Shown here piece by piece: positions 1-32,965 of a DNA stretch of 64,000 bases (position 1 is its first letter; the number at the start of each line of letters is the position of its first letter). The translations under genes were made by a program, and so were the position numbers. The notes under the pieces are model-generated. The model was not told the origin of the DNA, ran no database searches, and saw only the letters and a list, made by a program, of their open reading frames with translations. This stretch comes from Bacteroidota bacterium (lineage in GTDB: Bacteria; Bacteroidota; Bacteroidia; UBA4408): NCBI GenBank assembly GCA_040385525.1, contig JAZKHE010000005.1, forward strand, positions 10,819 to 74,818, written 5' to 3'.

Positions 1-2
1 AT

Positions 3-2141
3 AATACTTTTGTAGGTAATTTAGCCGGAGGTTTAACATCTATTGTTGGAGACAATAATACTTTTTTAGGTTCTTATGCTGGTTATTCAGGATCGAATAC
101 TGGTTCAACAAATACTTTTTTAGGTTATAATGTTGGTTCTAGCAACACTAGCGGAAGCAATAATACGTATGTTGGAGGCTATTCTGCATACAGCGCTACT
201 TCTGGTAATTTTAACACCGTAGTTGGTAATGATGCAGGTCAGAATTTAACAACAGGAGGAAATAATACATTTGTTGGTTATAACACTGGTTTTACAACTG
301 CAACACAACGAACTAACGCTACAGCCATTGGTTACAATACAACTGTTGATGCTGATAACGCAGTTGTTTTAGGCAATAATGCAAACGTAGGTATTGGAAT
401 AACTACACCAGGTAAATTTGCGGGCTCTACAAGGTATTTAAGTGTTGCAGCTATAACAACAGGTGTTTCTAACGGTACAGCTTCATTAGAATTGATTGGA
501 AATACAGCTTCATACAACACCCTAGCCTCTAAAATAGATTTTTTAGGAATAGTACCAATTTCAAATATAGCATCGCAAAGAGCAAGAATAGAAGCTCTAT
601 CTGGCGCGTCCATAACCTCTGCTGGACAATTAGCTTTTTCGACAAACAACGGAACTAATGCATCTTCAATTTTTGAACGTATGCGAATTACCGAAGCTGG
701 TAGAGTTGGTATTGGAACTACAGCGCCATCAACTGCTTCTTTATTCTCAGTAGGTGCTAGTAGCCAGTTTCAGGTATCATCAATAGGAGATATTGTTAGA
801 ATTAACAATGTACCTACAACTTGGCCAACCACAAATACAGCAGGATTTTTGCAAAACGATGGAACAGGTGCTTTAGCTTGGGGAGCTTTACCTTCTGGGT
901 CTAACGCATGGACAAAAACAGGAACATCAATTTATCAAACTGTATTAACTGATCTAGTTGGTATTGGAACAAGTTCGCCTGGATATAAACTGCATGTTTC
1001 AGATAATTCTGCAAACCCAGCAGTTTTTACAAGACAAGATGGAGCTGGTAACGCAATTCAAGGCAACGCTTATGGAACAGGAGATGGAGTTTATGGTGGG
1101 GCATCAGGAGGAGGTTTCGGTGTAAGGGCTAGAACTACAAGTACGGGAGCAGCTTTATTAGCTGAAGTTCAAGGTGGAGGAACAGGGCCAGCGGCAATTT
1201 TTTCTGGAGGTGCTGTTGGTATTGGAACATCATTGCCAACATTCGACCTGTCATTTAGAGGTAATGCAGCTAGTGATATTGGTATGGTAAGAAACACAGT
1301 TGCTGCAACTGCAGGAAATATACTAAGAATTGAAGCGGGTGGAGCAACATTAGCTTCAACTGATAGAAATGGTGGCGCATTAAATTTAGCTGCTGGTTTA
1401 TCTACGGGTACAGGAACGTCAACAATAAATTTTTTAACCTCTACACCCTCAACATTAACTGGAGCTACTGATAATTTACAATCTACAAAAATGACAATAA
1501 CAGGAGATGGTGATGTTGGTATTGGTGCAACACCAAACGTAAAATTTCATGTAAATGATGCTTCAGGGACAGTTACTGCTGTAAGATTTCAGATTGCAGG
1601 AACTACAAAATTTAGGTTAGATAATAATGGAGGAGTAAGTATTGGTAGCAATGTTGTTCCCCCTGCAAATGGATTGAATTTAGGTGGCGATGCAATTGTG
1701 CCTGCAGCAAACGACTATACTTATGCAGCAGCTAAAACAAAAACAGTAACAATACCTGCTATTGCATTTAATAATGTAAACGCAGCAATTACTTATGACG
1801 CTAATGGAGCCAGAATTTTTTATAATGGAGCCACTCCTGTATACGCTCCGTTAATACTTCCTATTGGTGCAATTATTACTGGTGTAAGGTGGATTATTTT
1901 TGATAACACAGTTGGGCAATCAAATACAGGTGGTTTATATCGTTTAGCTGAGGGCTCTACAACATCAACTTTAATTTCTAGTACCATCTCAGTAGATAAC
2001 GGAGCAGTTAATAATCATGCTGCTGTTCCGAATCACACAGTATTAGTTAATAATGCCTATACTTTAAAATGGACTCCAACTGATAATTCACAAAGTTTAT
2101 ATATGTGCACAATAACTTATACCGTATTACAAGCAGAATAA
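3..2141 (+). CDS. Phage-tail-fibre/YadA-like beta-repeat protein, 5'-truncated at the window edge
   Basis: Frame 3 is open from base 3 (NTFVGNLAGG...DNNTFLGSYAG...NNTYVGGYSA), so the ORF-track start at 492 is internal. Contains YadA-head-like NTxxGxxA repeats, six VGIG-type fibre modules and a C-terminal domain homologous to that of the next gene. Confidence 0.75.
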   Translation, partial: NTFVGNLAGGLTSIVGDNNTFLGSYAGYSGSNTGSTNTFLGYNVGSSNTSGSNNTYVGGYSAYSATSGNFNTVVGNDAGQNLTTGGNNTFVGYNTGFTTATQRTNATAIGYNTTVDADNAVVLGNNANVGIGITTPGKFAGSTRYLSVAAITTGVSNGTASLELIGNTASYNTLASKIDFLGIVPISNIASQRARIEALSGASITSAGQLAFSTNNGTNASSIFERMRITEAGRVGIGTTAPSTASLFSVGASSQFQVSSIGDIVRINNVPTTWPTTNTAGFLQNDGTGALAWGALPSGSNAWTKTGTSIYQTVLTDLVGIGTSSPGYKLHVSDNSANPAVFTRQDGAGNAIQGNAYGTGDGVYGGASGGGFGVRARTTSTGAALLAEVQGGGTGPAAIFSGGAVGIGTSLPTFDLSFRGNAASDIGMVRNTVAATAGNILRIEAGGATLASTDRNGGALNLAAGLSTGTGTSTINFLTSTPSTLTGATDNLQSTKMTITGDGDVGIGATPNVKFHVNDASGTVTAVRFQIAGTTKFRLDNNGGVSIGSNVVPPANGLNLGGDAIVPAANDYTYAAAKTKTVTIPAIAFNNVNAAITYDANGARIFYNGATPVYAPLILPIGAIITGVRWIIFDNTVGQSNTGGLYRLAEGSTTSTLISSTISVDNGAVNNHAAVPNHTVLVNNAYTLKWTPTDNSQSLYMCTITYTVLQAE

Positions 2142-2154
2142 TAAAAAGATAAAA

Positions 2155-5100
2155 ATGAAAAAAATATTTTATTTACTAATCATTGTTCTTTGCTTTGTTA
2201 AAAATACAGAGGCCCAAACCGAGTTAAACTCAACAGGAACTGGCGCTGCTTATGCATTGAGTTATCCTGCTGCGTTTACATATTCGTCGGGTATTACAAT
2301 TACTTTTAAAGCGCATACTGTAAACACTGGTGCGGCAACCCTTAATGTAAATGGTTTAGGAACTAAAGATGTATTTAAAAATGTTTCAAGTTCGTTAGCC
2401 TTTGGCGATATTGCGGCAGGTCAGTTTGTTACTGTTATTTACGATGGCACAAACTTTCAATTAACCACTCCAGTTTCTTCAAGTTCATCTCCATCGTGGG
2501 CTTTAGCTGGTAACACAGGTACTACAGCTGGCACAAACTTTATAGGAACAACGGATGCGGTTGATTTTGTTGCTAAAACAAATAATGTAGAGCGTTTAAG
2601 AATTTTGTCGGGTGGTAATGTGGGTATTGGAACTGGCAGCCCTGCTCCAGGAGCACAATTACATGTTGTTGGTGCTGCAAAAGCAGCAGTGTTAGAAGGT
2701 TCATATTCCAGTACGCTAATTACTTCTTCAATAATTACAGAGATTGTAAATAATGATGTAACCAATAACAACTATAGTTTAATAGGCTTTTCAGACCAAG
2801 GTACTAGTGGAACACCATCTGTAAAAATAGGTTCTCAAACTATTGACCACACAAACGATTATGGCGATTTTGTAGTGGGCACAAGAAGTGCTGTTGGTTT
2901 TACTGAAAAGATGAGGGTTACATCAGCTGGAAATATCGGGGTGGGAATTTCATCTCCAGTTTCGTTATTTACTATAAATAATGCAACTAATTCGCAACTA
3001 AGGTTATCCACAACCGCCTTGGGAAACACTTCGGCAGATGGTATGTTAATTGATTTGAACGGAACTTCGGGAAGTATTAATTTGTACGAAAACTTACCAT
3101 TGAGTTTTGCAACAAATAGTACAACTAAAATGACAATCCTAGCTGCTGGTAACGTTGGTATTGGAACAACAGGTCCTTCAAGTTTATTATCTGTAGGTGC
3201 AAGCAGTCAGTTTCAAGTAAGTGCAACGGGAGATATATTGAGAATTAAAAATTTAGCTTACACATGGCCTTCAACAGCTGTTGCTGGGGCACTTCAAAAC
3301 GATGGGACAGGAAATTTAACTTGGGGTGCTGTTGCGGGTACATTAAGTGGTGGAACGGCTAATAAAGTAACATACTGGACTGGAACAAACACAGTTTCGG
3401 CAAATAGTTTATTTTCTTGGGACAATACCAACGCACGTTTAGGAGTTGGAATAGCAGCGCCATTAAGCACATTGCATTTAGCTAATGCAAGCATACCTAC
3501 TTTCAATATGCAAAGTACGTCTACTTTAACTACTGCTGCATCAACTATTGCGCGCATTAATTTTCACGATTCACAAACTGCAGCATCAGGCCAAGCGTCT
3601 ATTTATTCAATAAGAGATGGCGCATCTGCTGGTGTAACAGATTTACCAACAGCTATTGCATTTTCTACAACCCCTGATGGAGCATCTTCGCCAGTGGAAG
3701 CAATGAGAATAAATAATCAAGGCTTTATAGGAATTGGTTCAACCTACCCACAACAAATTTTTAATCCATTAAGCATTCGTTCAACAGATGTAACAACAAA
3801 TGGTTCATCAGGAACATTTATTGATATTCACAACACAGCTAATGCAAACAATACATTTGCTGGTTTTAGGTTTAGAGCAACCGCTAATAGTGTGCCTTAT
3901 GATGATGAAGCTTTTCAAGCAGGTATATTTTTTAACAGAACAGACGGATTAAATTTTGGTAGAGGGGATATTATTATTGCGTCAAAAGGCACTGCAGATT
4001 ATAATAATGTAAATGCCCTTACTGATGCTAAAATGGTTATTAAAAGTGGTGGTCAAGTTGGTATAGGCGTGTTAAGTCCAATACATGCTTTAGATATTGA
4101 TGGAACAATAAATTTAAGACCAACAAATGGTAGAATTGCATTAAATGGTAATTTTGGTTTACCAGGCTATGTTCTAGTTTCTAACGGTGCAGGAAGTGCA
4201 AATTCATGGGCAGATCCGGCAGCATTGGGCACTAACTATTGGGCAAAAACAGGTGCTTCAGTATATCCAACTTCTATAACAAATAATGTTGCAATTGGAG
4301 CATTATCAGCCATTGCCAAGTTGGATGTTAGAGATATTAGTGTTACTACAACAGGAACTTTACCAGGCAACTTACATGTAATGTCAACTAATCCTCAAGC
4401 AATTGACATTGGAGGATCAATAAGTATAGGAGGTTATTACGATGACGCTGCAACAGGAGCTAGAATGTTTGCTACTATAGAAGCAAGAAAATCGAATTCA
4501 ACAACGGCTAATGCCGCAGGTTATTTGTTGTTTAAAACAAATAGTGGGGCCAGTACTATTGAAAGAATGCGAATTGATGCTGGAGGTAATGTAGGAATAG
4601 GAACTTCGTCTCCAGGAGCAACAAGATTAAATCTTACCATTCCAAATACCGATGCTACAAACCCTATTGGTTTAACAATAAATAATAATTATATCGGATC
4701 TAGTGATAAGTTTGGTATAGATGTAAATGTGGATGGAGCGGGTAGCGGACAAAAATTTGGAATAAGTTCAAGTGTTGTTGGTTTAGCTGCAGATGCAAGC
4801 GCAATTTATGGATACCAAGTGGCAATGACTCCAAACGGAACAGGAATAGCTCATGGTGTTTATTCTGTGCTATCAGCCGTGGGAACTGGAACTCGTTATG
4901 GTTTTTATAATAGCGTAGCGGCAGAAGCAACAAGTGTTAGCACAATATACGGAATTAGAAATATTTTATCAGGAGCTGCTGCAACAAAATATGGTATGTA
5001 TACAAGTGGTGAAGACAGAAATTATTTTAGTGGTAATGTAGGTATTGGTATAACGAATCCTTCATCAAAATTAGAAGTTGTTGGTGATGTTGAAATACCT

Positions 5101-5601
5101 GCTACAAACGATTATAAATACAGTACTCCAAAAACATATTATTATACAATTAGTCCCGGAGAGTTTACAAGTAATTCAGAAATAAATTATTCAATGGGTA
5201 GAGTAGTTGATGCAACTACAGGTTCTGTTACTTATGCCTATTTTGCTAATGGAGTAGCTACTTCTCAAGGTTACGCAACAGCTGGAGTGCACTTGCCAGA
5301 CGGAGCAAAAATTACAAAATTCTCTGCATGGTTGTATAATAATGATTTATCAGTAACAAATATCCCTACTGTATATTTGTTAAGAAGAACTTTAACTTCA
5401 GGAACCTATGGAATTATAGCAAGTTGCTCTTTAGCAACAGTTTCAACGGCAATAACTAGAGTGGATGACAATGCTCCTGCAAATATAATTGTAGATAATT
5501 TAAGCTACCCTTATGTTGTTACTTTTTTAGCAGATCAGGCTAGTTCAACACTACGGCTTTATACAGTGCAAATTGAATACACAGTAGATAATGCGCAGTA
5601 A
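2155..5601 (+). CDS. Secreted phage-tail-fibre-like protein (1148 aa), no T9SS CTD and no S74 chaperone domain
   Basis: Sec signal peptide ending NTEA|Q, nine GNVGIGT-type modules, an N-terminal FKAHTVNTGAATLNVNGLG...IYDGTNF domain and a C-terminal NDYKY...HLPDGAKIT...IEYTV domain. Confidence 0.75.
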   Translation: MKKIFYLLIIVLCFVKNTEAQTELNSTGTGAAYALSYPAAFTYSSGITITFKAHTVNTGAATLNVNGLGTKDVFKNVSSSLAFGDIAAGQFVTVIYDGTNFQLTTPVSSSSSPSWALAGNTGTTAGTNFIGTTDAVDFVAKTNNVERLRILSGGNVGIGTGSPAPGAQLHVVGAAKAAVLEGSYSSTLITSSIITEIVNNDVTNNNYSLIGFSDQGTSGTPSVKIGSQTIDHTNDYGDFVVGTRSAVGFTEKMRVTSAGNIGVGISSPVSLFTINNATNSQLRLSTTALGNTSADGMLIDLNGTSGSINLYENLPLSFATNSTTKMTILAAGNVGIGTTGPSSLLSVGASSQFQVSATGDILRIKNLAYTWPSTAVAGALQNDGTGNLTWGAVAGTLSGGTANKVTYWTGTNTVSANSLFSWDNTNARLGVGIAAPLSTLHLANASIPTFNMQSTSTLTTAASTIARINFHDSQTAASGQASIYSIRDGASAGVTDLPTAIAFSTTPDGASSPVEAMRINNQGFIGIGSTYPQQIFNPLSIRSTDVTTNGSSGTFIDIHNTANANNTFAGFRFRATANSVPYDDEAFQAGIFFNRTDGLNFGRGDIIIASKGTADYNNVNALTDAKMVIKSGGQVGIGVLSPIHALDIDGTINLRPTNGRIALNGNFGLPGYVLVSNGAGSANSWADPAALGTNYWAKTGASVYPTSITNNVAIGALSAIAKLDVRDISVTTTGTLPGNLHVMSTNPQAIDIGGSISIGGYYDDAATGARMFATIEARKSNSTTANAAGYLLFKTNSGASTIERMRIDAGGNVGIGTSSPGATRLNLTIPNTDATNPIGLTINNNYIGSSDKFGIDVNVDGAGSGQKFGISSSVVGLAADASAIYGYQVAMTPNGTGIAHGVYSVLSAVGTGTRYGFYNSVAAEATSVSTIYGIRNILSGAAATKYGMYTSGEDRNYFSGNVGIGITNPSSKLEVVGDVEIPATNDYKYSTPKTYYYTISPGEFTSNSEINYSMGRVVDATTGSVTYAYFANGVATSQGYATAGVHLPDGAKITKFSAWLYNNDLSVTNIPTVYLLRRTLTSGTYGIIASCSLATVSTAITRVDDNAPANIIVDNLSYPYVVTFLADQASSTLRLYTVQIEYTVDNAQ

Positions 5602-5602
5602 T

Positions 5603-6319
5603 ATGAATATATACAAAACACTTTTTTTTATTTCTGTAGCTTTTGTAGCAAAAGCTCAAGTGCAGCTAACACCTGTAGTTGTGGGTAGCACTGGCACTTT
5701 TTCTGAGCCTTCTTTCGGTTCAGTTACATCAACTGTTGGCGAGCCAATTACAACCACATTAAGTGCAAACAACAAACATTTAACACAAGGTTTTAATCAA
5801 CCTAATAACACGCTTAAATTTACAATTACAGGTGTAAACGCAACATGTTTTGGCGGCGAAAATGGCTCTGCTTTTGTAGAAATTACTAGTGGTAAAGAAC
5901 CTTTTACGGTAGAGTGGTTACCAACAAACCAAAAAGCAGATACAGCCATTGGTTTGCGCGAAGGAAAACACGTTGTAGTTGTTACCGATGCTAATGGTCG
6001 TACTAAAAGAGATTCTGTTGAAATTTTAGCCGATTCGCCAGTGCCTTGCGAAATAAAAATCTACTCTGGTTTTTCTCCTAATGGAGATGGAGCAAACGAA
6101 AATTGGGCAATTGATAATATTTTATTATACCCCGATAATTCTGTAAAAATATTTACACGTTGGGGCGAAAAAATTTGGGATGCAACAAATTATGATAATT
6201 CAACTGTAGTTTGGGACGGAAAAAGTAATTTAGGCACAAATTTGCCCGAAGGAACTTATTTTTATATGGTAGAAATTAATAAAACAAAATACGAAGGTTG
6301 GGTACAGCTGAGTAGATAA
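5603..6319 (+). CDS. Small T9SS type-B cargo: TQGFNQP domain, SprB repeat, CHU_C (gliding-motility-associated) CTD
   Basis: Signal peptide ending VAKA|Q. SprB-like VNATCFGGENGSA...YTVEW...VTDANG. CTD motifs GFSPNGDGANENW, IFTRWGEKIW, WDGK and PEGTYFY. ATG at 5603 preferred over 5591 because it follows the upstream stop directly. Confidence 0.85.
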   Translation: MNIYKTLFFISVAFVAKAQVQLTPVVVGSTGTFSEPSFGSVTSTVGEPITTTLSANNKHLTQGFNQPNNTLKFTITGVNATCFGGENGSAFVEITSGKEPFTVEWLPTNQKADTAIGLREGKHVVVVTDANGRTKRDSVEILADSPVPCEIKIYSGFSPNGDGANENWAIDNILLYPDNSVKIFTRWGEKIWDATNYDNSTVVWDGKSNLGTNLPEGTYFYMVEINKTKYEGWVQLSR

Positions 6320-6321
6320 TT

Positions 6322-6434
6322 TAGTGATTAGTAAATAGAGCTTAGAGATTAGTTAATAGTGATTAGAAAAATTAAAAAAAATTAAAATAACACATATAAA
6401 CTTTGTACTCAGTACTTAATACTTTGTACTAAAA
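6322..6434. repeat. Two opposed degenerate heptamer arrays: (TAG-N4)x7 and (ACT-N4)x5
   Basis: 6322-6370 reads tagtgat tagtaaa tagagct tagagat tagttaa tagtgat tagaaaa. 6400-6434 reads actttgt actcagt acttaat actttgt actaaaa. Confidence 0.8.
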
Positions 6435-6439
6435 ATAAA

Positions 6440-7369
6440 ATGAATAAAAATTTAAAATATATACTTTTATTGTGTGCTTTGTTAAGCGCTAACAAAATTT
6501 TGTTGGCTCAGCAAGATGCGCAGTTTACACAATACATGTTTAACCCTTTGGTTTTAAATCCTGCCTATGCAGGAAGTAGAGAAGGTGTTAGCGGAAACAT
6601 GTTGTATCGGGATCAGTGGGCTGCTTTTGACGGTGCGCCAGTTACACAAACATTTAGTATACATTCTCCGTTGCGTAACAACAAAGTAGGTTTAGGATTT
6701 CACGTAATTAACGATCAAATTGGTCCCGTTGGTACAACAGGAGTAAATGGTTCTTACGCTTATCGTTTAAAAATGGGCAAAGGCAAATTAGCTTTGGGTT
6801 TGCGTGCAGGTATTTTTAATTATCGTTTCGATTGGAATAAAATAGAATACAAAGATAAAACAGATGTTTTTGCTGCTGTTTTACCAACGCGCAGGTTTAT
6901 GCCTACATTCGATTTTGGAACGTATTATTACACCGGTAAATTTTATTTGGGAGCAGCTGTTTCACACATCGATCAAGCAACCTATGCAAAAGCAGCTACT
7001 GATGGTAATTATAAAATAAAATTAGCATCGCACATTGTTGTTACGTCGGGATATGCTTGGGTAATAAATAAAAAAGTTACGTTTAAACCTTCTGTAGTTG
7101 TAAAAACATTGGTAAACCAAATCCCTACAATTGATGTAAATGCGGCTGTTTTACTCGACGAAAAATTGTGGTTAGGAGTTGGAGCACGTTCTACTAACGC
7201 GGCTATGATTATTGCGGAATATAACTTAACTAAAAATTTTAGATTTGGTTATTCTTATGATATTTCAATAAATGAATTGCGTTCAGTTAATAAAGGTTCG
7301 CACGAAGTATTTTTAGGATTTGATTTTGAAATTTATAAAACAAGAACATTGTCACCACGCTATTTTTAA
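6440..7369 (+). CDS. PorP/SprF family T9SS outer-membrane protein
   Basis: QQDAQFTQYMFNPLVLNPAYAG start, YRDQWAAFDGAP, and C-terminal GYSYD...GSHEVFLGF. Lies directly downstream of a type-B CTD gene. Confidence 0.93.
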   Translation: MNKNLKYILLLCALLSANKILLAQQDAQFTQYMFNPLVLNPAYAGSREGVSGNMLYRDQWAAFDGAPVTQTFSIHSPLRNNKVGLGFHVINDQIGPVGTTGVNGSYAYRLKMGKGKLALGLRAGIFNYRFDWNKIEYKDKTDVFAAVLPTRRFMPTFDFGTYYYTGKFYLGAAVSHIDQATYAKAATDGNYKIKLASHIVVTSGYAWVINKKVTFKPSVVVKTLVNQIPTIDVNAAVLLDEKLWLGVGARSTNAAMIIAEYNLTKNFRFGYSYDISINELRSVNKGSHEVFLGFDFEIYKTRTLSPRYF

Positions 7370-7388
7370 TAGTTTGGTTTAATTATAT

Positions 7389-10300
7389 ATGAAGTTTAGA
7401 TTTTTTGCAGCTGTTGTTTTTATTTTTTTGTTTACGGGCAAAAGTCTTTTCGCGCAATTAGAAAAAGCGAATTACCATTTCGAGAATTTTCACTACGCTC
7501 AAGCAATTCCACTTTATATAAAGGCAGCTAAAAAAGAAAAAACAAAAATTGTTGCCACGCAAAAATTAGCCGATTGTTACCGAATTTTACACGATTACCG
7601 CAATGCGGAAATGCAATACGCACAAGTAATTAAAAATGGGGGTAATTTACCAATACATCATTTGTATTATGGGCAAATGCTTTTTAACAATGGGCATGTA
7701 AATTCTGCTAAAGAACAATTCGATTTATTTTCTAACGCAAGTGGCGAAGATAAACGCGCGCAAAACTTAATGAGTTCAATCATTATAACTCGTTTGTGGT
7801 CGGTAAAGCAACGAGAGTGCGATATACTTAACGTAAGAGATTTAAATACTTTAGGCGCTGAGTTTTGCGCAATTCCATACAATAAAAATATTGTTTTTGT
7901 TTCTGATAGAGGAACCGATTTAGTAAACTACTCAAAAAGTTCGATTGATGATCGCCCTTATTTGTCAATGTTTTTAGCTGAACGTGGCAAAGGAAAAGAT
8001 AGCGCTAAGTTTAAAAAAATCGAGAATTTTTCTGGAAAAATAAATAACGAGTATCATAACGGTCCGGCCACATTTGTAGAGTCGGGCAAACAAATATTTT
8101 TTACGCGAGTTGACAGAAAAGTATATGCAAAGAATAGTGGCTTAATTAATCGCCCAAGAGTATACTATTCAACAAAAATTAAAGATAGTTGGGATCAAAT
8201 TAGACCTTTGGCTTTCAACAACGATAATTATTCTGTAGCTCATCCTGCAATAAGTTCAGATGGAATGACATTAATTTTTTCATCAGATATGCCAGGTGGG
8301 TTTGGAGGTAAAGATTTGTATATCTGTAAGCTCGAAGGTGCAAACTGGAGTAAACCTGTAAACTTAGGAGCTAAAATTAATTCAGTTCAAGATGAGGTTT
8401 TTCCTTATTTACATAAAAATGGAACTTTATATTTTAGTAGCGATGGACACGTTGGTTTTGGAGGTTTAGACATATACTCGGCGCGTTATATTGATAACGA
8501 ATGGCGAGAAGTTAAAAATTTACAAGAACCAATTAACTCTACTTACGATGATTTTGGAATAAGCTTTTTGTTTAAACACGCTAGCGGATATTTTTCATCT
8601 AACCGCCCAGGGGGAGTTGGTGGCGACGATATTTATTCTTTCGACTTAATAAAAAAACTTCCTAGAATCACAGCTATATCTGGTAAAATATTTAGAAACG
8701 AATTAGACGTTGCTCAAAATTTAGAGATTAAATTAACCGATGAAACAGGTTTAGTTTTAGAAACAACAAAAACAGATAGTTTAGGCGTTTTTAGATTCGA
8801 AAAATTGAATCCAGAAGAAGATTACATCGTTATGTTAGATGCCGATGAGGTTGGAATAAACACAAAAGAAGTAACTCAATTTCATGGTAGATTGTTTTAT
8901 AACGATGATATGCCGGCCAATAAAGCAAAGTTGGTGATTAAAAATAAAGAAGGTGTTTGGGTAAAAGAAATGGAAACAGATCAGGCAGGTTACTTCCGAT
9001 TTGATTATTTAGAGTACGAAAAAAACAATTTAGATACAATTACCGATCCGGATGTAGCCTTTGTTAAAAAAGAACTTTTTAAATATCAGCAACTTACTAC
9101 CGATAATATTATTCCTGATAATTTAAATGAAGAAGAAACCATAGCAAAACTTAAAAAATTATTTAAATACGATGAGTTACTTGCTACTACAACTGCTTTA
9201 AATACAGAAGAAAATGCGGATACAGAATTTTATGTAAAAGGTAATTTTGTTTACAATAAATTGCGTACAGATTCTTTTGCGCTTAACACTTTATCAGAAG
9301 ACGCAACAAAATTCTATTTAAAAAACAAGTTTGTTTACAATAAATTAACTGGTGATTCTTTTGCTTTAAAAACAGAAGAAGAAATTGCCGATAGATTTTA
9401 TGTAAAAGATGGATATAGATATGATAAGTTAAATGGCGATTCGATAGGGTTATCAATGTTGTATACCGATAATGATAAGTTTTATGTTAAAGAAAATTTT
9501 AGATACAATAAATTAACTGGCGATTCAATTTCGTTGGATTTACTTACCGAAGAAGATGTTGATTTTGATGTTAACTCTTATACTTTAAAAATGCGTTTGT
9601 TTACTGGTGCCGATTTTAAAAATATTGCACCGGGAGTAAAAGTAACTATTAAAGATGGCAACGGAGTAGTTTATAAAGAAACACTTACGGATAGTAATGG
9701 CGAATTAAAAGTTAACTTTTTACCAATTAACAGAACTTACGTAATAAAGGTAGATCAAGATAATGATGTAATACAGCAAAACGATAACTATTCTACTTTT
9801 GGTAGAGTTATGAATAGTAATAGCACTAAGTTTCCGATAAAAGGAAAAGAAATTTCGTTTGCAAACATGGCAAATATTTTATTTGCTAATTCAATAACTG
9901 ATGACGAAGGATTTTTTAAACTAAACGGAAAAACAGAAAAACGCAACGCATTAAATCTTATTGCTCATCAGCAAGATTCAATAAATGGTTTGGCGTTAAG
10001 TGACGAAGCGTTGAGAAGAAAGCAAGAACAAATAAAACTTAATAAAATAAATAATACCTCCGATAACTTAAGCGCAGAACAATTAGCCGAAGAAGCATTA
10101 CGTCGTAAAAAAGAAGAAGAACGCATGAAGTTGGTTAAATTAAACAACACAAGCGATAAACTTAATGCATTAGAAATTACAGACGATGATATTTTAAAAA
10201 TATACGGAAATAAAACTGTGCGCGATTTAACTTTTACAACACAAGTTGCGGCTTATAAAATGTCGAAGAATTTTGCTTTCCAAAAAATTCAACAAAAATT

Positions 10301-11060
10301 TGGAACCGTAAAAGAGCAAAAACTAGATGATGGAATTACACGCTTTACAGTACAATCGCACGCAACAATAAACAGTGCAGACTCTGTGCGTCAGTTGTTA
10401 ATTAAAGAAGGCGTAAAAGATGCTTTTGTTACAGCAATTTACAAAGGCAAGCGTTATTTGTTGCGCGATTTAATTGCAATGGGAATTTTTAACTCTACTG
10501 AAGAAGCTTATTTTAGTGCAGTACAAAAAGGAGAAAATAACGTAGCCGAAATTCCTAAAGAAGAAAAAACGGATATAGTAAAACCTATAGAAAACAAAAC
10601 AATTGTCGAAACAAAAACAGAAAACCCTACAACTAACGTTTCGGTTACTGCTGTAGTAGAAGATAAAGTTACAGAAAACAAAACAAAAACTTCAACAGCA
10701 AGTAAAACCAAAGAAGCTGATAAATTAAAATTACCAGCTGATATTGAAAAATTAGTTGATGAGTATGGTGATATTATTACTGATAAAGTAGAATACAGAG
10801 TACAAGTAGGAGCCTTTAAATTAATTACAAGTAGTTATCAATACAAGCGCTTAGAGGAAGTTGGCAGAATCGATAAAAAAGAATACCAAGATGGAATTGT
10901 GCGCTACACAATTGGTCATTGCGAAACTCTGCGAGAAGCCAATAAAATTCGTCGCCAAGTAGTTAAAGTAGGTGTGCAAGATGCCTTTGTGGTTGTGGTG
11001 CAAAAAGGTAACCGCTACACCGTTTACGAAGCCATTCGTAAAGGAATTGTGAAAAAATAG
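7389..11060 (+). CDS. PorE-like periplasmic protein (TPR, PD40 beta-propeller, carboxypeptidase-regulatory-like domains) with repeat insert and two SPOR-like domains
   Basis: N-terminal TPR (ANYHFENFHYAQAIPLY; LADCYRIL). PD40 motifs (HPAISSDG, FSSDMPGGFGGKDLY, GFGGLDIY, SSNRPGGVGGDDIY). C-terminus has TTQVAAY...KDAFVTA and YRVQVGAF...QDAFVVV rather than an OmpA domain. Confidence 0.75.
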   Translation: MKFRFFAAVVFIFLFTGKSLFAQLEKANYHFENFHYAQAIPLYIKAAKKEKTKIVATQKLADCYRILHDYRNAEMQYAQVIKNGGNLPIHHLYYGQMLFNNGHVNSAKEQFDLFSNASGEDKRAQNLMSSIIITRLWSVKQRECDILNVRDLNTLGAEFCAIPYNKNIVFVSDRGTDLVNYSKSSIDDRPYLSMFLAERGKGKDSAKFKKIENFSGKINNEYHNGPATFVESGKQIFFTRVDRKVYAKNSGLINRPRVYYSTKIKDSWDQIRPLAFNNDNYSVAHPAISSDGMTLIFSSDMPGGFGGKDLYICKLEGANWSKPVNLGAKINSVQDEVFPYLHKNGTLYFSSDGHVGFGGLDIYSARYIDNEWREVKNLQEPINSTYDDFGISFLFKHASGYFSSNRPGGVGGDDIYSFDLIKKLPRITAISGKIFRNELDVAQNLEIKLTDETGLVLETTKTDSLGVFRFEKLNPEEDYIVMLDADEVGINTKEVTQFHGRLFYNDDMPANKAKLVIKNKEGVWVKEMETDQAGYFRFDYLEYEKNNLDTITDPDVAFVKKELFKYQQLTTDNIIPDNLNEEETIAKLKKLFKYDELLATTTALNTEENADTEFYVKGNFVYNKLRTDSFALNTLSEDATKFYLKNKFVYNKLTGDSFALKTEEEIADRFYVKDGYRYDKLNGDSIGLSMLYTDNDKFYVKENFRYNKLTGDSISLDLLTEEDVDFDVNSYTLKMRLFTGADFKNIAPGVKVTIKDGNGVVYKETLTDSNGELKVNFLPINRTYVIKVDQDNDVIQQNDNYSTFGRVMNSNSTKFPIKGKEISFANMANILFANSITDDEGFFKLNGKTEKRNALNLIAHQQDSINGLALSDEALRRKQEQIKLNKINNTSDNLSAEQLAEEALRRKKEEERMKLVKLNNTSDKLNALEITDDDILKIYGNKTVRDLTFTTQVAAYKMSKNFAFQKIQQKFGTVKEQKLDDGITRFTVQSHATINSADSVRQLLIKEGVKDAFVTAIYKGKRYLLRDLIAMGIFNSTEEAYFSAVQKGENNVAEIPKEEKTDIVKPIENKTIVETKTENPTTNVSVTAVVEDKVTENKTKTSTASKTKEADKLKLPADIEKLVDEYGDIITDKVEYRVQVGAFKLITSSYQYKRLEEVGRIDKKEYQDGIVRYTIGHCETLREANKIRRQVVKVGVQDAFVVVVQKGNRYTVYEAIRKGIVKK
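8994..9581 (+). repeat. Seven tandem 28-aa (84-bp) intragenic repeats
   Basis: Consensus approximately FxYNKLxxDSxxLxxLxEDxxxFYVKxx, e.g. FVYNKLRTDSFALNTLSEDATKFYLKNK then FVYNKLTGDSFALKTEEEIADRFYVKDG. Confidence 0.8.
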
Positions 11061-11068
11061 TTTATTTT

Positions 11069-11094
11069 AAAAGGAAGCTTAGCTTCCTTTTTTT
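11069..11094 (+). terminator. Intrinsic terminator closing the fibre-T9SS operon
   Basis: AAGGAAGC-tta-GCTTCCTT stem followed by a T run. Confidence 0.8.
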
Positions 11095-11226
11095 ATGTTT
11101 ACTCTATACTGCAAATAGCCTATGTTTCTATGTGGTGAAAAAAATCAATTGTGGTTTTCAAAAATTTTCTTACATTTCAGTATGGAATTTTGATGCTTTT
11201 TGCATCTACCAATAAAACATACCGTA

Positions 11227-14200
11227 ATGAAAAAATTCATTTTATTTTTAGCATGCACTTTAGTTGCTGCTGTTAGCTACAATTTATATAGCAACACAAA
11301 CGAAACAGAACCATATCTGTTTCCTAAAAACAGCACTTATGAGCAAGAGTTTGCTAAATCCGATTCACTTTTAAATATAGGACAAAACCGCAGCGCGCTT
11401 GCCATTGTAAAAGCAATTAAAGAAAAAGCAGTTACAGAAAAAAATAGCGCACAATTTGTAAAATCGGTTTTATATACGCTTAACGCAGAATCGAAATTTG
11501 AAGAAGACAGCTACATCAAAGCCATTACCGATTTAGAAACCGATTGTATAAACGCCCCGTTTCCTGCCAATGCTATTTTGCATAGCATAACTTCCGAAGT
11601 GTATTGGAGATATTATCAAAACAACCGCTGGAAATTTTCGAGCAGAACTAAAACTACTAATTTTGAAAACACAGATATAAGAACTTGGGATTTAGATAAA
11701 ATTGCCGCGCAAAGCACCGAACATCATTTAAAATCTATTTATGTTTCTAAAGACGAATTAAAAAAAATAAACATAGATGATTATCAATTATTGCTTTCTA
11801 ATTTTTACGATTCAAAATCGTTTCGCCCAACATTATACGACTTTATAGCCAACAGAGCGGTTGATTTTTTTGTTAGTACAGAAACCGAATTAACAAAACC
11901 AGCTTATAAATTCGAAATCAACAACGCCGATTATTTTTTGCCTTTCACTGAATTTACAAAACTGAACTTGCAAGCGAAAGATTCATTAGCAATGAAATTT
12001 TTTGCGCTTAAAACCTATCAAGAGTTAATTGCGTTTCACCAAGCAGATGCCGACCCAAAAGCACTGATAGATATTGATTTAAAACGCTTAAATTTTATTT
12101 ATCGCAATTCTGTTTTACCACAAAAAGATAGTTTGTATTTACTTTCTTTACAAAAAATAGAAAATCAGTTTGATAACTCTCCGTATGGTGCAGAAGCTAC
12201 TTTCCAAATTGCAGAATTGTTTTACGAACAAGGTTCAAAATATGTGGCGCAAGAAGGCGATGAAATTATCGTTGATGAAAATCATCCAAAATGGAAAATT
12301 AAAAAAGCCTTAGCTATTTGCGATGATGTAATGAATAAGTTTCCTAAAAGTGATGCCTATGCCATGTGCAATGCTTTAAAATTAAAGGTTTTAAACAAAT
12401 CGGTTTCTATCACTACAGAACAAACCAATGTGGCTAATCAAGATTTTTTAGCGCAGGTTTCTTATAAAAATGTAAGTAAAATATATTTTAGAATTGCTAA
12501 AATTAATTACACAAGAGACAATAAACTAAACAATAAATATTATGGTGAAGAGTTGGTAAAACAATACGCAAAACTTACTCCCGAAAAAGCATGGTCGGTG
12601 GATTTGCCAGCGACAAACGATTTTCAGAATCATAAAATAGAATTGGCAATGCCAGCTTTAAATTATTCGTATTATGTTTTGTTGGCGTCTAATAGTCCCG
12701 ACTTTACTGTTACAGCAGGTAATGCAGTTGGTCACACCACTTTTTGGGTAAGCAATATTTCTTATTTTGAAAGAAGATTAGAAGATGGTTCGGCACAAAT
12801 AAGAATTATGGACAGAACTTCTGGCGCAAATTTAAAAGGCGTTAAATTGCAATTGTGGGAAAATAAATACAACTACACTACTCGTAAATACGAAGATAAT
12901 TCTGCAGGAGTTTTAATTTCTAACGAAGAAGGAATTTGCGAAATAAAAGCAAATCCAAATTATAGAAATTTTAATTTAGAATTTACAAATGGAAATGATA
13001 GATTGTATTCGTCACAAACTTTGTATTTAAACGAGCGAAATCAAAACGAAAAATATTATTCTTACAGAACAACTTTTTTTACGGATAGAGCCATTTACCG
13101 ACCAGGGCAAACCATTTATTTTAAGGGTTTGCTACTTAAAACAAATGGCGAACAAAACGAACTGGTTACCAATACTTCAACTACTGTAACTTTTTATGAT
13201 GTAAACCATCAAAAGGTTTCTTCGCTCGATTTAACAAGTAACGAATACGGAACAATACAAGGAAGTTTCGTTGCTCCAAACGGAGTTTTAAATGGACAAA
13301 TGTATATTACAAATGGTAACGGAACGCAATATTTCTCTGTTGAAGAATATAAGCGTCCAAAATTTGAAGTGGAGTTTTTGCCTTTAACTGGTTCACCAAA
13401 ATTAAACGATTCAATTGCAGTTAAAGGCTTTGCTAAAACCTATGCGGGTGCTGTTGTTGACGGCGCAAAAGTAAAATACAGAGTAGTGCGTAATGCAATT
13501 TTTCCGTATTGGAAATACTACTGGAGAAGCGCACAACCATCATCTCCCGAAATGGAAATTACTAACGGATTTTCAGTTACCAACGAAAAAGGAGAATACA
13601 CTATAACGTTTAAGGCATTACCTGATAATGGAATTAGTGCGACATCAAAACCAACGTATAGTTATACAGTTTATACTGATATTACTGATTGCAATGGAGA
13701 AACACGTAGCGCAACAAAAACAATACGTGTAGGTTATCAAGCTTTGAGTTTATATGTAAATATTGAAAGCGAAATAATAAAACAAAACGAACAAAAATAT
13801 TCAATAACAACCGCTAATTTAAACGGCGATTTTGAACCAGCAAGTGGAACAATTGAATTGTTTTTATTAAAAGAAACAGAAACCGTAAAGCGCAATAAAC
13901 GTTGGGAAAGTTCTGATCAATTTTCTATGACGAATGACGAGTATACAACTAAATTTCCATTTGATATTCGCTCTACAAAAAATGAAAACGCAATAGTAAA
14001 AGATAAAAAAATTGCATCGTATTCATTCAACACAGCTAAAGAGAAGGAAATTTTAATTTCTGAACTTTCAAAAGCTACAGCAGGAAAATATGTGTTAGAA
14101 ATAAAAGCAAAAGATAAATACAATAGTTTAGTTGAAAACGAATTCTATTTTACACTTTTTGATAAAGCAAACAATAAAATTGCCGCTCAATTACCTTTTT

Positions 14201-30062: not shown

Positions 30063-31152
30063 ATGATTACAACCGAACAAATTAAAGACATTTTAGAGCG
30101 CACGCAAGCGCTGAGGGGGCATCTTTGACATTGATGCCAAGCTAAAAGAAATTGCCGAAAACGAAGAAAGGAGTTTAGCTCCCAACTTTTGGGACGACCC
30201 TAAAAAAGCCGAAGAACTTTTAAAACAAATTAAAATTTCTAAAGATTGGACGCAAAAGTACCAACAATTAGTTTCTTCTTCAGATGATTTAGTAACACTT
30301 TTCGACTTTTTTAAAGAAGGCGAAGCTACTGAAGCTGATATAGAAAGCCAGTTTGAGCAAGCAAATACTTTGGTAGAAGAGCTAGAGTTTAAGAATATGC
30401 TAAGCGGCAAAGAAGATTTGCTAAGCGCTGTAATAACTATTAATGCAGGTGCAGGTGGAACCGAAAGTTGCGATTGGGCAGCTATGCTTTTGCGTATGTA
30501 TAAAATGTGGGCCGAAAAACACGGTTACAAAGTAAACGAAGTTGATTATCAAGATGGTGATGTAGCTGGTTTAAAATCGGTTACCATTCAAATTGAAGGC
30601 GATTATGCTTATGGATATTTAAAGGGCGAAAGTGGTGTGCATCGCTTAGTTAGAATTTCTCCTTTTGATTCTAACGCTAAAAGACATACCAGTTTTGCTT
30701 CTGTTTATGCGTATCCTTTAATTGATGATACCATTGAAGTTGAAGTAAACATGAGCGATATTGAGTGGGATACTTTTAGAGCTGGTGGCGCAGGCGGACA
30801 AAATGTAAATAAGGTGGAAACTGCGGTTCGTTTATTCCACAAACCTTCTGGCATTATTATAAAAAATCAAGAAAGTAGGTCTCAACTTCAGAATAAAGAA
30901 AACGCTGTTAAACTATTAAAATCGCAATTGTACGAAATAGAAATGCGTAAGCGTAGAGAAGCTATTAATACAATAGAAAGTTCTAAAAAGAAAATAGAGT
31001 GGGGTTCGCAAATTCGAAACTATGTAATGCATCCTTATAAATTAGTAAAAGATATTCGTACAGATTACGAAACATCAAACGTGCAAGCAATAATGGATGG
31101 CGAATTAGATGATTTTATAAAAGCGTACTTAATGGAATACGGAGATTCTTAA
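30063..31152 (+). CDS. prfB: Peptide chain release factor 2 with programmed +1 frameshift
   Basis: ORF1 [21 protein letters not shown] ends CTT TGA C at 30123-30129. The +1 frame (GAC ATT GAT...FWDDPKKA) is in frame with ORF 30370-31152, which has the SPF and GGQ motifs. Confidence 0.96.
30114..30129 (+). promoter_or_regulatory. prfB +1 frameshift cassette
   Basis: AGGGGG, 3-nt spacer, CTT TGA C: the canonical RF2 autoregulatory site. Confidence 0.95.
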
Positions 31153-31679: not shown

Positions 31680-32033
31680 ATGATAAAAATATACCACAAC
31701 AATAGATGTTCTAAAAGTAGAGCTGCTTTACAAGCTATTCAACAATCGGGAAATAAGTTTGAGATAATTGATTATTTAAACAACGCGCCCACTTTAGCGG
31801 AACTAAAAAAGTTGATTTCAAATTCTGAATACAACGTAATTGATTTCGTTAGAACAAAAGAAAAGATTTTTGTAGAGAACTACAGAAATCTTTCTTTAAC
31901 AGACAATCAGCTACTTGAAATTTTAGCTAAACATCCAGAACTTTTAGAAAGACCAATTGTGGTTTACAACAAAAAAGTAATTATAGTTCGCGACGAAGAA
32001 AAACTAAAAGAAATTTCTAATTGGCGAATTTAG
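31680..32033 (+). CDS. ArsC/Spx family arsenate reductase-like protein
   Basis: IYHNNRCSKSR and HPELLERPIV. Its 3' end overlaps the convergent PorP gene by 17 bp. Confidence 0.88.
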   Translation: MIKIYHNNRCSKSRAALQAIQQSGNKFEIIDYLNNAPTLAELKKLISNSEYNVIDFVRTKEKIFVENYRNLSLTDNQLLEILAKHPELLERPIVVYNKKVIIVRDEEKLKEISNWRI

Positions 32034-32946
32034 GTTTTACTTTATTCCCTTTTACCAAACTGTAAGACGCAACAATTTCGTGTGTTCCGTTTGAGTGTCT
32101 TCCAATTCGTAATCCTTTAGATACTTTAGCAAAACTCATATCGTAAGCATAACCAACTCTAAAGTTTTTGTTAGCTTGGTACTCTGCCATAACAACGAAC
32201 GCACTACCATTTTTAAAATTACTAAAACGATAAGACAAACCTCCAGTAATTAAATTGTTGTATGTAATTCTGCAATTTAAATCCGTTTGAAGTGGTGCTT
32301 TAGGAGCAAATTTAATTAATGCTGATGGCTTTAAAACCCACTGTGCATCAATATCGTAGTTATAGCCACCATATAAATAAAAATGTCTTTTTAAATTGTA
32401 TAAATTGTGTTTGTCGTAATCTAAAAGTGTTGGAACAGATAAACCTGCGTAATAATCTTTAGCTAAATAAAAAGCACCCAATCCAAACTTTGGAATCCAA
32501 ACACTAGTTTTACTATTGTTAATTATATTATCGTTGTAGTCCCAATAATTACCAGATGATAAATCGTTATTGTAATTGCTAAATCCAGCGGTTGCTCCAA
32601 ACGAAAGCTGATCTTTATTATCAAGTTTTAAATGATAAGAATACGAACCAATAATATCTGTTTGATTTGTTTTTCCAATTCTATCGTTTGCAATTTTTAA
32701 ACCCACACCCATTTTTTCGTCGGGCAAAGCGCCTTCAACTGTTACCGCGTTAGAAACGGGAGCGCCTGCAAAACCAACCCATTGCGAACGATTCATAAAC
32801 GAACCTGTAAAGTATTTGTTTACGCCACCAATTGCTGGATTTATTAAATAAGGAGTAAATAAATACTGACTTACTAAAATTTCTTGTTGTGCATTTACTT
32901 TAGCAATGCTAAATAATAATACAACTAGTATAAAAAGTTTTTTCAT
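32017..32946 (-). CDS. PorP/SprF family T9SS outer-membrane protein
   Basis: QQEILVSQYLFTPYLINPAIGG, RSQWVGFAGAP and VGYAYD...GTHEIVASY. Directly downstream of a type-B CTD giant. Confidence 0.92.
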   Translation of the reverse strand: MKKLFILVVLLFSIAKVNAQQEILVSQYLFTPYLINPAIGGVNKYFTGSFMNRSQWVGFAGAPVSNAVTVEGALPDEKMGVGLKIANDRIGKTNQTDIIGSYSYHLKLDNKDQLSFGATAGFSNYNNDLSSGNYWDYNDNIINNSKTSVWIPKFGLGAFYLAKDYYAGLSVPTLLDYDKHNLYNLKRHFYLYGGYNYDIDAQWVLKPSALIKFAPKAPLQTDLNCRITYNNLITGGLSYRFSNFKNGSAFVVMAEYQANKNFRVGYAYDMSFAKVSKGLRIGRHSNGTHEIVASYSLVKGNKVKPKFAN

Positions 32947-32965
32947 AATTTATATATTCAATTAT

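What the first reader, a model, noticed from the sequence alone, without database searches (positions are those of the whole stretch)
2215..2470. Phage tail-fibre-type N-terminal domain placed behind a Sec signal peptide
Seen: after the signal peptide comes YALSYPAAFTYSSGITITFKAHTVNTGAATLNVNGLGTKDVFKNVSSSLAFGDIAAGQFVTVIYDGTNF. From recall, not search, this pattern (FKAxxxNTGAxTLNVNGLG...GDIxAG...YDG) is typical of prophage tail-fibre or baseplate-proximal domains, which normally lack signal peptides. No capsid, terminase, portal or integrase gene is in the window. Inference: a virion attachment domain co-opted as the base of a cellular fibre.
Basis: partly seen in the sequence, partly recalled or inferred. 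Interest (0 to 1): 0.6.

Follow-up and report, generated by a model that had tools for sequence, protein, structure and literature searches.

The report
Phage-fibre bead heading a secreted fibre
A Bacteroidota chromosome encodes long secreted surface fibres whose first module, directly behind the export signal, is a "bead" found in thousands of phage tail fibres; these fibres usually sit next to type IX secretion anchor genes, which points to an untested way of mounting them on the cell.

Summary
**Observation: confirmed.** Window 2215-2470 encodes residues 21-105 of a 1148-aa protein (2155-5601, +). It follows a typical Bacteroidota Sec signal peptide, cleaved ...TEA|Q.

**The domain (residues 21-125) is a phage tail-fibre module:**
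- No Pfam or NCBIfam model matches it.
- It matches tail PHROGs, 33 phage records and 16,613 protein clusters.
- It matches one solved structure, Pa193 tail fibre gp47 residues 246-333 ("bead III"), by profile (E 5e-19) and by fold.

**First reading: partly supported.**
- In phages this is a shaft bead, repeated 2-14 times in the top hits. It is not the baseplate-attachment element.
- Here one copy begins 5 residues after the cleavage site.
- It is the only part conserved collinearly in all 21 relatives tested. Shafts are mosaic and tips differ.
- The 22 such beads form one clade.

**Context is cellular, not phage.**
- Three tandem paralog fibres precede a 242-aa type-B-CTD protein, a PorP/SprF gene and a PorE-like gene.
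- This operon recurs in 10 of 13 loci examined.
- The fibres have no T9SS CTD.

**Best reading:** a MAT-like trimeric surface adhesin whose constant proximal module is the bead, coupled in trans to the T9SS anchor trio. The coupling is inferred, not shown. The same trio also serves fibres with an unrelated N-terminal domain.

Earlier notes of this scan describe the fibre-plus-small-CTD-protein arrangement on other DNA.

The parts
2155..2214 (+). Sec/SPI signal peptide of fibre P0001 (residues 1-20), cleavage predicted after A20, exposing Q21
   Evidence: Sequence features. The hydrophobic core and A|Q junction are conserved in 22 homologues. An N-terminal Gln after cleavage fits the Bacteroidetes Q-rule (PMC5837995).
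2215..2529 (+). Bead domain (residues 21-125): a phage tail-fibre shaft module, single copy, first module of the mature protein
   Evidence: PHROG 27282/4900/28171; phage tblastn hits; 16,613 clusters; PDB 9b45_2 residues 246-333, E 5e-19; AF2 model pLDDT 89; Foldseek against PDB finds only 9b45_2; 59 BFVD hits.
2155..5601 (+). Fibre gene P0001 (1148 aa): signal peptide, bead, mosaic phage-like shaft and a variable C-terminal tip of about 150 aa; no T9SS CTD
   Evidence: Tail-fibre PHROGs 9942 and 18345 on the shaft. Residues 314-457 resemble the Bdellovibrio fibre 8ojn_C. No Pfam CTD hit in the C-terminus even at E<=1. Mosaic conservation.
3..2141 (+). C-terminal 712 aa of paralog fibre P0005 (933 aa; gene starts upstream of the window at L007:10158). 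It has the same signal peptide plus N-terminal bead (57% identity in the domain).
   Evidence: A third paralog, P0004 (1009 aa, 78% identity in the domain), lies at L007:7129-10158.
5591..6319 (+). Small secreted protein P0003 (242 aa): signal peptide, conserved ~55-aa N-terminal domain ending in TQGFxQP, one SprB repeat, T9SS type-B CTD. Its start overlaps the fibre's stop by 11 nt.
   Evidence: Pfam CHU_C 7.8e-25 and SprB; TIGR04131; alignment A3; the same gene follows the fibres in 10 loci.
6440..7369 (+). PorP/SprF-family outer-membrane protein
   Evidence: PF11751 5.9e-77; TIGR03519.
7389..11060 (+). PorE-like protein (TPR/PD40/CRD-like N-terminal half)
   Evidence: NF052230 T9SS_PorE 2.4e-75, below its curated cut-off; PD40 and CarboxypepD_reg.
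11069..11091 (+). Terminator-like hairpin closing the operon
   Evidence: 10-bp stem followed by a T-rich tail, the strongest such site in 1-12000.

Best explanation
P0001 is a chromosomal, Sec-exported fibre of the phage-tail-fibre kind, and is probably trimeric. It is closest in architecture to the Bdellovibrio MAT adhesins: signal peptide, invariant N-terminal beta module, mosaic shaft, variable ligand-binding tip. The flagged domain is a phage tail-fibre shaft 'bead' of the Pa193 gp47 bead III type. In phages it lies in tandem copies between a short virion-attachment segment and the tip. Here the attachment segment is absent, and a single bead starts 5 residues after the signal-peptidase site. 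Because this bead is the only constant module of the family, I infer that it is the cell-proximal end. It would cap or nucleate the trimer and give all paralog fibres one common interface. Through that interface they would be coupled in trans to the operon's small type-B-CTD protein, its PorP/SprF carrier and the PorE-like protein, which would take the CTD-less fibres to the cell surface or hold them there. The variable C-terminal tips would bind different ligands. Shown: domain identity, its phage relatives, the signal peptide, absence of a CTD, the conservation pattern and operon recurrence. Inferred: trimer, surface location, N-terminus proximal, and coupling to the T9SS trio. My odds: about 0.9 for a secreted phage-type fibre with a bead as first module, and about 0.4 for the bead itself being the coupling interface.
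For: - **Domain identity:** PHROG tail families; tail-fibre genes of 33 phage records; profile hit to Pa193 gp47 residues 246-333, E 5e-19; fold hit TMq 0.67, rmsd 2.3 Å; 59 BFVD hits with TMq 0.7-0.79; all 96 sampled bead proteins hit phrog_4900, and their other parts hit many tail-fibre PHROGs.
- **Cellular context:** three tandem paralogs; T9SS genes downstream; housekeeping genes across 17-55 kb.
- **Constant N-terminus:** residues 1-150 align collinearly in 19-21 of 21 relatives, against 1-12 for the rest. Tips differ: S74, Phage_depo_C or other.
- **One lineage:** the 22 such beads form one clade, SH-like 98 in FastTree and SH-aLRT 94 in IQ-TREE.
- **Operon recurrence:** fibre(s), then the small type-B-CTD protein, then PorP/SprF, then PorE-like, in 10 of 13 loci from several families. 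The last upstream fibre gene (in L012 a collagen-like one, not the bead fibre) and the small gene lie between a 14-nt overlap and a 34-nt gap. A single terminator follows the PorE-like gene.
- **Co-occurrence:** all 11 genomes with a strong N-terminal-bead fibre also hold the small protein's N-terminal domain; the background is 210 of 401 genomes.
- **No CTD:** no type A or B CTD in any of the three fibre C-termini at E<=1, while neighbours P0003 and P0006 hit CHU_C and Por_Secre_tail.
- **Precedents:** PorP-PorE-PG1035 (type B) surface complex (PMC9143113); cognate PorP/SprF shuttles (PMC12618676); MAT fibres with a conserved post-signal-peptide N-domain proposed to bind an unknown surface element (PMC10769870).
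Against: - The same small-protein/PorP/PorE trio also follows fibres whose N-terminal domain ('INYQAVARD' type, often followed by DUF7151) shows no detectable similarity to the bead. hhalign aligns only the signal peptides. Both fibre types can share one operon (L008, L012).
- The small protein's N-terminal domain is in 210 of 401 genomes, against 34 of 401 for the bead. The bead is therefore not the universal docking element.
- Three bead-fibre loci (L013, L020, L021) lack the trio nearby.
- Constancy of the N-terminus could simply reflect where recombination swaps modules.
- No trimer, localisation or expression data exist.
- In Pa193 this bead is not the attachment site.
Confidence: 0.5

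Rival explanations
1. The bead is only a structural shaft module that happens to be first. The fibres are secreted adhesins, but export across the outer membrane and anchoring depend on something else: another part of the fibre, another pathway, or release into the medium. The N-terminus is constant only because signal peptide plus first module is the fixed 5' end behind which recombination shuffles cassettes.
For: In phages the bead is a plain repeated shaft unit. The trio serves fibres with an unrelated N-domain. Three loci have bead fibres without an adjacent trio. Shafts are mosaic.
Against: Conservation includes the very first mature residues and extends to about residue 150 in all 21 relatives across several families. 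The bead fibres form one clade tied to the operon. Genes are tightly spaced or overlapping with the small CTD protein. No alternative export signal was found.
Confidence: 0.33
2. The genes are virion or tailocin parts of a prophage or phage remnant, and the 'signal peptide' is a mis-called start or a hydrophobic N-terminal segment with no export role.
For: Whole-protein similarity to tail-fibre PHROGs. One crAss-like phage contig encodes a protein with a signal-peptide-like N-terminus and an N-terminal bead (P0183).
Against: No phage structural, lysis or integration genes lie in the window parts scanned or the upstream flank. Neighbours are T9SS, alpha-2-macroglobulin, FabF, RF2, BamA, Skp and UppS. 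The operon with T9SS genes recurs in 10 loci. Signal peptide plus A|Q is conserved in 22 homologues. The P0183 bead is not in the same clade.
Confidence: 0.04
3. The fibre's variable C-terminal tip is an unrecognised T9SS signal, so the fibres are ordinary cis-signalled T9SS cargo and the small CTD protein is unrelated cargo.
For: T9SS CTDs are divergent, and the fibres lie in a T9SS operon.
Against: C-termini differ completely among family members. Some are self-cleaving S74 chaperones or Phage_depo_C. None hits CTD models at E<=1.
Confidence: 0.05

Closest known systems
Pseudomonas phage Pa193 tail fibre gp47, bead III (PDB 9b45 chain 2; PMC11456595), and PHROGs 4900, 28171 and 27282
   Same: Same domain by profile (E 5e-19) and by fold (Foldseek E 2e-5, TMq 0.67). 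It is a small beta module; in Pa193 three copies from three chains form one bead of a trimeric 'beads-on-a-string' proximal shaft.
   Different: In phages it is internal and usually tandem (2-14 copies in the top hits), and it follows an N-terminal virion-attachment segment. Here it is a single copy directly behind a Sec signal peptide, in a chromosomal T9SS operon.
Bdellovibrio bacteriovorus MAT (mosaic adhesive trimer) fibres (Caulton et al. 2024, PMC10769870)
   Same: Architecture and probably mode of action match: signal peptide, a conserved beta-rich N-terminal domain immediately after it, a trimeric phage-like mosaic shaft, and variable tips with or without S74. P0001 residues 314-457 match the MAT structure 8ojn_C (E 1.4e-5). 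The authors list FCB-group (Bacteroidota) examples in their Supplementary Table S3.
   Different: The MAT N-domain was reported to have no structural homologue in the PDB, and its partner is unknown. Here the N-domain is a phage bead. The one MAT-like fibre from a Pseudobdellovibrionaceae genome that I could test shows no similarity to it (hhalign probability 0.1). HD100 MAT proteins themselves were not tested. No T9SS exists in Bdellovibrio.
Type-B CTD cargo with PorP/SprF carrier and PorE: PG1035-PorP-PorE of P. gingivalis, SprB-SprF of F. johnsoniae (PMC9143113, PMC12618676)
   Same: The downstream trio (small type-B-CTD protein, PorP/SprF, PorE-like) is a paralogous copy of this anchoring unit.
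   Different: In the known cases the adhesin itself carries the CTD. Here the long fibres carry none, and the CTD sits on a separate 242-aa protein.

Membership tests
Phage tail-fibre bead module (Pa193 gp47 bead III / PHROG 4900 type) | Sequence-profile match to the module | tested here: met
   PHROG 27282 7.7e-8 and 4900 1.3e-7; the A1 profile against 9b45_2 gives E 5e-19.
Phage tail-fibre bead module (Pa193 gp47 bead III / PHROG 4900 type) | Same fold | tested here: met
   AF2 model pLDDT 89. The only PDB hit is 9b45_2, TMq 0.67, rmsd 2.3 Å. 59 BFVD hits at E<=1e-3. The Pa193 fibre model was itself an AlphaFold model fitted to density.
Phage tail-fibre bead module (Pa193 gp47 bead III / PHROG 4900 type) | Three chains form one bead (trimer) | not testable with these tools
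   Only a monomer was folded. The one complex job gave no verdict (see Tried and rejected).
Virion tail fibre (phage- or prophage-encoded) | Encoded among phage tail or baseplate genes | tested here: not met
   Neighbours are T9SS, collagen-like, NHL, A2M and housekeeping genes.
Virion tail fibre (phage- or prophage-encoded) | N-terminal virion-attachment segment, no export signal | tested here: not met
   The signal peptide is followed after 5 residues by the bead.
MAT-type cellular fibres (Bdellovibrio) | Signal peptide followed directly by a conserved beta-rich N-terminal domain, then a mosaic trimeric shaft and variable tip (S74 or not) | tested here: met
   S74 is present in relatives P0159, P0160, P0162 and the L008 1749-aa protein. 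Shaft match to 8ojn_C.
MAT-type cellular fibres (Bdellovibrio) | N-terminal domain homologous to the MAT N-domain | tested here: inconclusive
   No similarity to the N-terminus of a Pseudobdellovibrionaceae MAT-like fibre (L029:2578-3327; hhalign probability 0.1). HD100 MAT sequences could not be fetched.
Canonical T9SS cargo | Sec signal peptide | tested here: met
Canonical T9SS cargo | C-terminal type A or type B CTD on the same polypeptide | tested here: not met
   No PF18962, PF13585, TIGR04183 or TIGR04131 hit in P0001, P0004 or P0005, also at E<=1 on the C-terminal ~190 aa. Controls P0003 and P0006 do hit.

The most novel reading that the evidence does not exclude
CTD-less, phage-derived trimeric fibres are exported and mounted on the Bacteroidota cell surface in trans. 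A small protein, consisting of little more than a 55-residue adaptor domain, one SprB repeat and a type-B CTD, grips the fibres' constant N-terminal module (here a phage bead) and carries them through the T9SS to a dedicated PorP/PorE anchor. That would be a cellular counterpart of a phage baseplate socket that accepts interchangeable fibres.
Probability: 0.25. Interest if true: 0.8.

Novelty: new variant of a known kind. Interest (0 to 1): 0.55.

Why it matters
- **A common, unmodelled phage module gets a structural anchor.** The module has 16,613 clusters at 50% identity and no Pfam or NCBIfam model. It can now be tied to Pa193 gp47 bead III.
- **It has a second life in cells.** The same module is the constant head of a cellular fibre family.
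- **MAT-like fibres in Bacteroidota gain a candidate cell-side partner.** For the Bdellovibrio MAT fibres that partner is still unknown. The candidate here is genetically tractable: a small type-B-CTD protein with its own PorP/SprF and PorE-like proteins.
- **If the coupling holds, T9SS can display cargo that has no CTD of its own.** That would change how T9SS secretomes are predicted. It would also explain how Bacteroidota keep swappable adhesin repertoires on one anchor.

Tried and rejected
- **Complex prediction:** three copies of the bead (A2, residues 21-125) with P0003 residues 23-155 gave 'no answer' (score 0.00). This is no evidence either way.
- **P0003 fold:** the AF2 model from a 10-row alignment has pLDDT 42-50 over the N-terminal ~55-aa domain, so nothing can be read from it. 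I ran no fold search on it.
- **Fetching a B. bacteriovorus MAT gene:** I used a 70-aa stretch printed. The MAT N-domain comparison therefore rests on one relative.
- **Common origin of the two N-terminal domain types:** hhalign of bead-type (A2) against 'INYQAVARD'-type (A6) N-termini aligns only the signal peptides, so a common origin is rejected at this sensitivity.
- **Literature:** searches for T9SS together with tail-fibre-like proteins found no description of this arrangement in the held library.
- **Considered and rejected:**
  - Lipoprotein anchoring: there is no lipobox, and paralogs lack the Cys.
  - Prophage origin of the locus.
  - A hidden CTD in the tip.

Full report
**1.
- Window 2155-5601 (+) is a single 1148-aa frame, P0001.
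- Residues 1-20 have a basic n-region, a 12-residue hydrophobic core and a ...TEA|Q junction.
- By HMM and alignment the domain extends to about residue 125 (window 2529).
- In an alignment of 22 homologues the signal peptide, the A|Q junction (Q21 invariant) and the domain are all conserved.
- A glutamine exposed by signal peptidase I is the Bacteroidetes Q-rule (PMC5837995).
- No signal-peptide predictor was on hand, so this part rests on sequence features and conservation.

**2. What the domain is.**
- Pfam and NCBIfam have no model for it.
- PHROGs 27282, 4900 ('tail protein') and 28171 match it, each at an internal position of the profile.
- tblastn finds it in 33 phage records. These include annotated tail-fibre genes of E. 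coli Xuquatrovirus phages, Pseudomonas putida jumbo phages, Pseudomonas aeruginosa phages and Rhizobium phage RR1-B.
- Its position in those proteins varies: about residues 52-139 of 541, 324-390 of 1346 and 278-339 of 532.
- An exhaustive HMMER search of 1.84 billion representatives gives 16,613 clusters at E<=1e-3 and 3,260 at E<=1e-10.
- Every one of the 145 best non-family hits carries 2-14 tandem copies. The first copy starts at median residue 91, and the last quarter of the protein is free of beads. The top list is biased towards multi-copy proteins because scores add up.
- All 96 proteins sampled hit phrog_4900, and their other parts hit many different tail-fibre PHROGs.
- A profile of 140 copies (A1) hits one solved structure: Pseudomonas phage Pa193 tail fibre gp47, residues 246-333, E 5e-19.
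- The AF2 model of residues 21-125 has pLDDT 89. In the PDB it matches only that chain (Foldseek E 2e-5, TMq 0.67, rmsd 2.3 Å). It also matches 59 predicted viral structures at E<=1e-3, with TMq 0.7-0.79.
[quoted passage not shown] The baseplate contact is made by loops 38-52 of bead I (PMC11456595). Our domain is bead III.
It was wrong about the role: this is a shaft bead, not the virion-attachment element.

**3. The context is cellular.**
- The genome holds three copies of the domain, all N-terminal, in three tandem fibre genes: P0004 (1009 aa, 78% identity in the domain), P0005 (933 aa, 57%; its C-terminal 712 aa are window 3-2141) and P0001.
- Upstream lie a collagen-repeat giant protein and an NHL-repeat protein with a type-A CTD.
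- Downstream, in order, lie:
  - P0003 (242 aa: signal peptide, a conserved ~55-aa domain ending in TQGFxQP, one SprB repeat and a type-B CTD);
  - a PorP/SprF protein;
  - a PorE-like protein;
  - the strongest terminator-like hairpin of the region.
- The window from 17 to 55 kb encodes FabF, RF2, BamA, Skp, UppS, sugar-nucleotide enzymes and a second giant type-B adhesin with its own PorP. It encodes no phage genes.

**4. A fibre family defined by this N-terminus.**
- Proteins with signal peptide plus N-terminal bead occur in metagenomes and genomes of the same class.
- In a sample of 401 genomes of the class, 34 hold the bead at E<=1e-5. In the window's own order it is 2 of 27, so the distribution is patchy.
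- Against 21 relatives, only residues 1-150 of P0001 align collinearly in all of them. The shaft is mosaic. The tips differ (Peptidase_S74, Phage_depo_C or others), and the P0001 tip is shared only with its own paralogs.
- In trees of 163 and 97 bead copies, the 22 signal-peptide-proximal beads form one side of a branch (SH-like 98 and SH-aLRT 94). The nearest neighbours are other signal-peptide-bearing proteins (support 88, long branches).
- With about 106 columns these trees resolve little else, and they are unrooted. The direction of transfer is not shown.

**5. The T9SS link.**
- In 10 of 13 loci with such fibres, the order is one to three fibres, then a ~245-aa homologue of P0003, then PorP/SprF, then a PorE-like protein. 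The loci are the window, L008, L009/L010, L012 and L014-L019, from several families.
- The last upstream fibre gene (in L012 a collagen-like one, not the bead fibre) and the small gene lie between a 14-nt overlap and a 34-nt gap.
- L013, L020 and L021 lack the trio nearby.
- None of the three fibres of this genome hits a CTD model, even at E<=1, while P0003 and the NHL protein do.
- Known biology supplies the frame. Type-B CTD proteins bind cognate PorP/SprF proteins, and PG1035-PorP-PorE form a surface complex (PMC9143113, PMC12618676).
- All 11 genomes with a strong N-terminal-bead fibre also hold the P0003 N-terminal domain. The background is 210 of 401 genomes. That tally includes one unpublished genome, G118, on which no specific claim rests. 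The genomes are related, so this is not a formal test.

**6. What limits the 'bead is the dock' idea.**
- Close homologues of the trio in genomes without the bead are preceded by fibres with another N-terminal module: the 'INYQAVARD' type, often followed by DUF7151, sometimes with collagen repeats or a Phage_depo_C tip.
- That module shows no similarity to the bead beyond the signal peptide.
- Both fibre types can share one operon (L008, L012).
- The small protein's N-terminal domain is much more widespread than the bead.
- Either the adaptor accepts several kinds of N-terminal module, or coupling runs through something else.

**7. Comparison with what is known.**
- The closest described system is the Bdellovibrio MAT family. 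It has a signal peptide, a conserved ~130-aa beta-rich domain directly after it, a trimeric phage-like shaft, and variable tips with or without S74.
- The MAT authors propose that the N-domain binds an unidentified surface element, and they list FCB-group examples (PMC10769870).
- The P0001 shaft matches a MAT structure (8ojn_C, E 1.4e-5).
- The N-domain of the one MAT-like relative I could fetch is not similar to the bead. HD100 proteins were not tested.
- The fibre as such is therefore a member of a known kind. Three things are new here:
  - the identity of the constant N-terminal module, a phage shaft bead with a solved relative;
  - its monophyly within this fibre family;
  - its recurrent operon with a T9SS type-B anchor trio.
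- Earlier notes of this scan describe the general pairing of a CTD-less fibre with a small CTD protein on other DNA. My counts agree with them. I found no paper on it in the held library.

**8. Verdict.**
- The most likely mechanism is a secreted, trimeric, MAT-like adhesin whose constant proximal module is a phage bead.
- I put about 0.4 on that module being the interface to the T9SS anchor trio.
- The main rival, at about 0.33, is that the bead is only the first shaft unit and coupling lies elsewhere.

Noticed in passing
L011:10001-13969 (P0183, NCBI contig SDBT01000328.1): A 1322-aa protein with a signal-peptide-like N-terminus ending ...FAQ and a bead at residues 24-129 lies in a crAss-like phage context (crAss_MUZ, GH108 lysozyme, many small ORFs). 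Its bead is not in the clade of the cellular fibres. So a signal-peptide-like N-terminus on a bead fibre also occurs in a Bacteroidota phage.
   Followed up: partly
L031:8020-13912, L032:4110-10015, L008:636-9974, L012:12323-15979 (alignment A6): A second, unrelated constant N-terminal module ('AQAPEKINYQAVARD...', about 120 aa, often followed by DUF7151 or collagen repeats) heads other CTD-less fibres in front of the same small-CTD/PorP/PorE trio.
   Followed up: partly
window 5657-5818 (P0003 residues 23-76; alignment A5): The ~55-aa domain ending in TQGFxQP is found in 210 of 401 sampled genomes of the class, mostly in ORFs of 160-290 aa. AF2 gives it pLDDT 42-50 in the monomer.
   Followed up: partly
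window 2215-2529 and alignment A1: The bead module has no Pfam-A or NCBIfam model although it occurs in 16,613 clusters at 50% identity. Bead-rich proteins give only sub-threshold chance hits such as DUF5800.
   Followed up: yes
window 32017-44869 (-): A 3967-aa protein with PKD-like repeats and a type-B CTD (CHU_C), followed by its own PorP/SprF gene (32017-32946). This is the classical cis arrangement, in the same window as the trans-like one.
   Followed up: no
window 7389-11060 (+): The PorE-like protein gives no OmpA Pfam hit, only a weak SPOR hit at residues 1135-1202 (E 0.007). Its counterparts in L008 and L009 carry OmpA.
   Followed up: no
window 30370-31152 (+): The release-factor ORF matches the PCRF profile only from position 81. 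The N-terminal part must lie upstream in another frame, as expected for the programmed frameshift of prfB.
   Followed up: no
L007:1-5745 and L007:5789-7123 (upstream of the window): A collagen-triple-helix giant protein (more than 1914 aa, runs off the contig end) and an NHL-repeat protein with a type-A CTD lie directly upstream of the three fibre genes.
   Followed up: no
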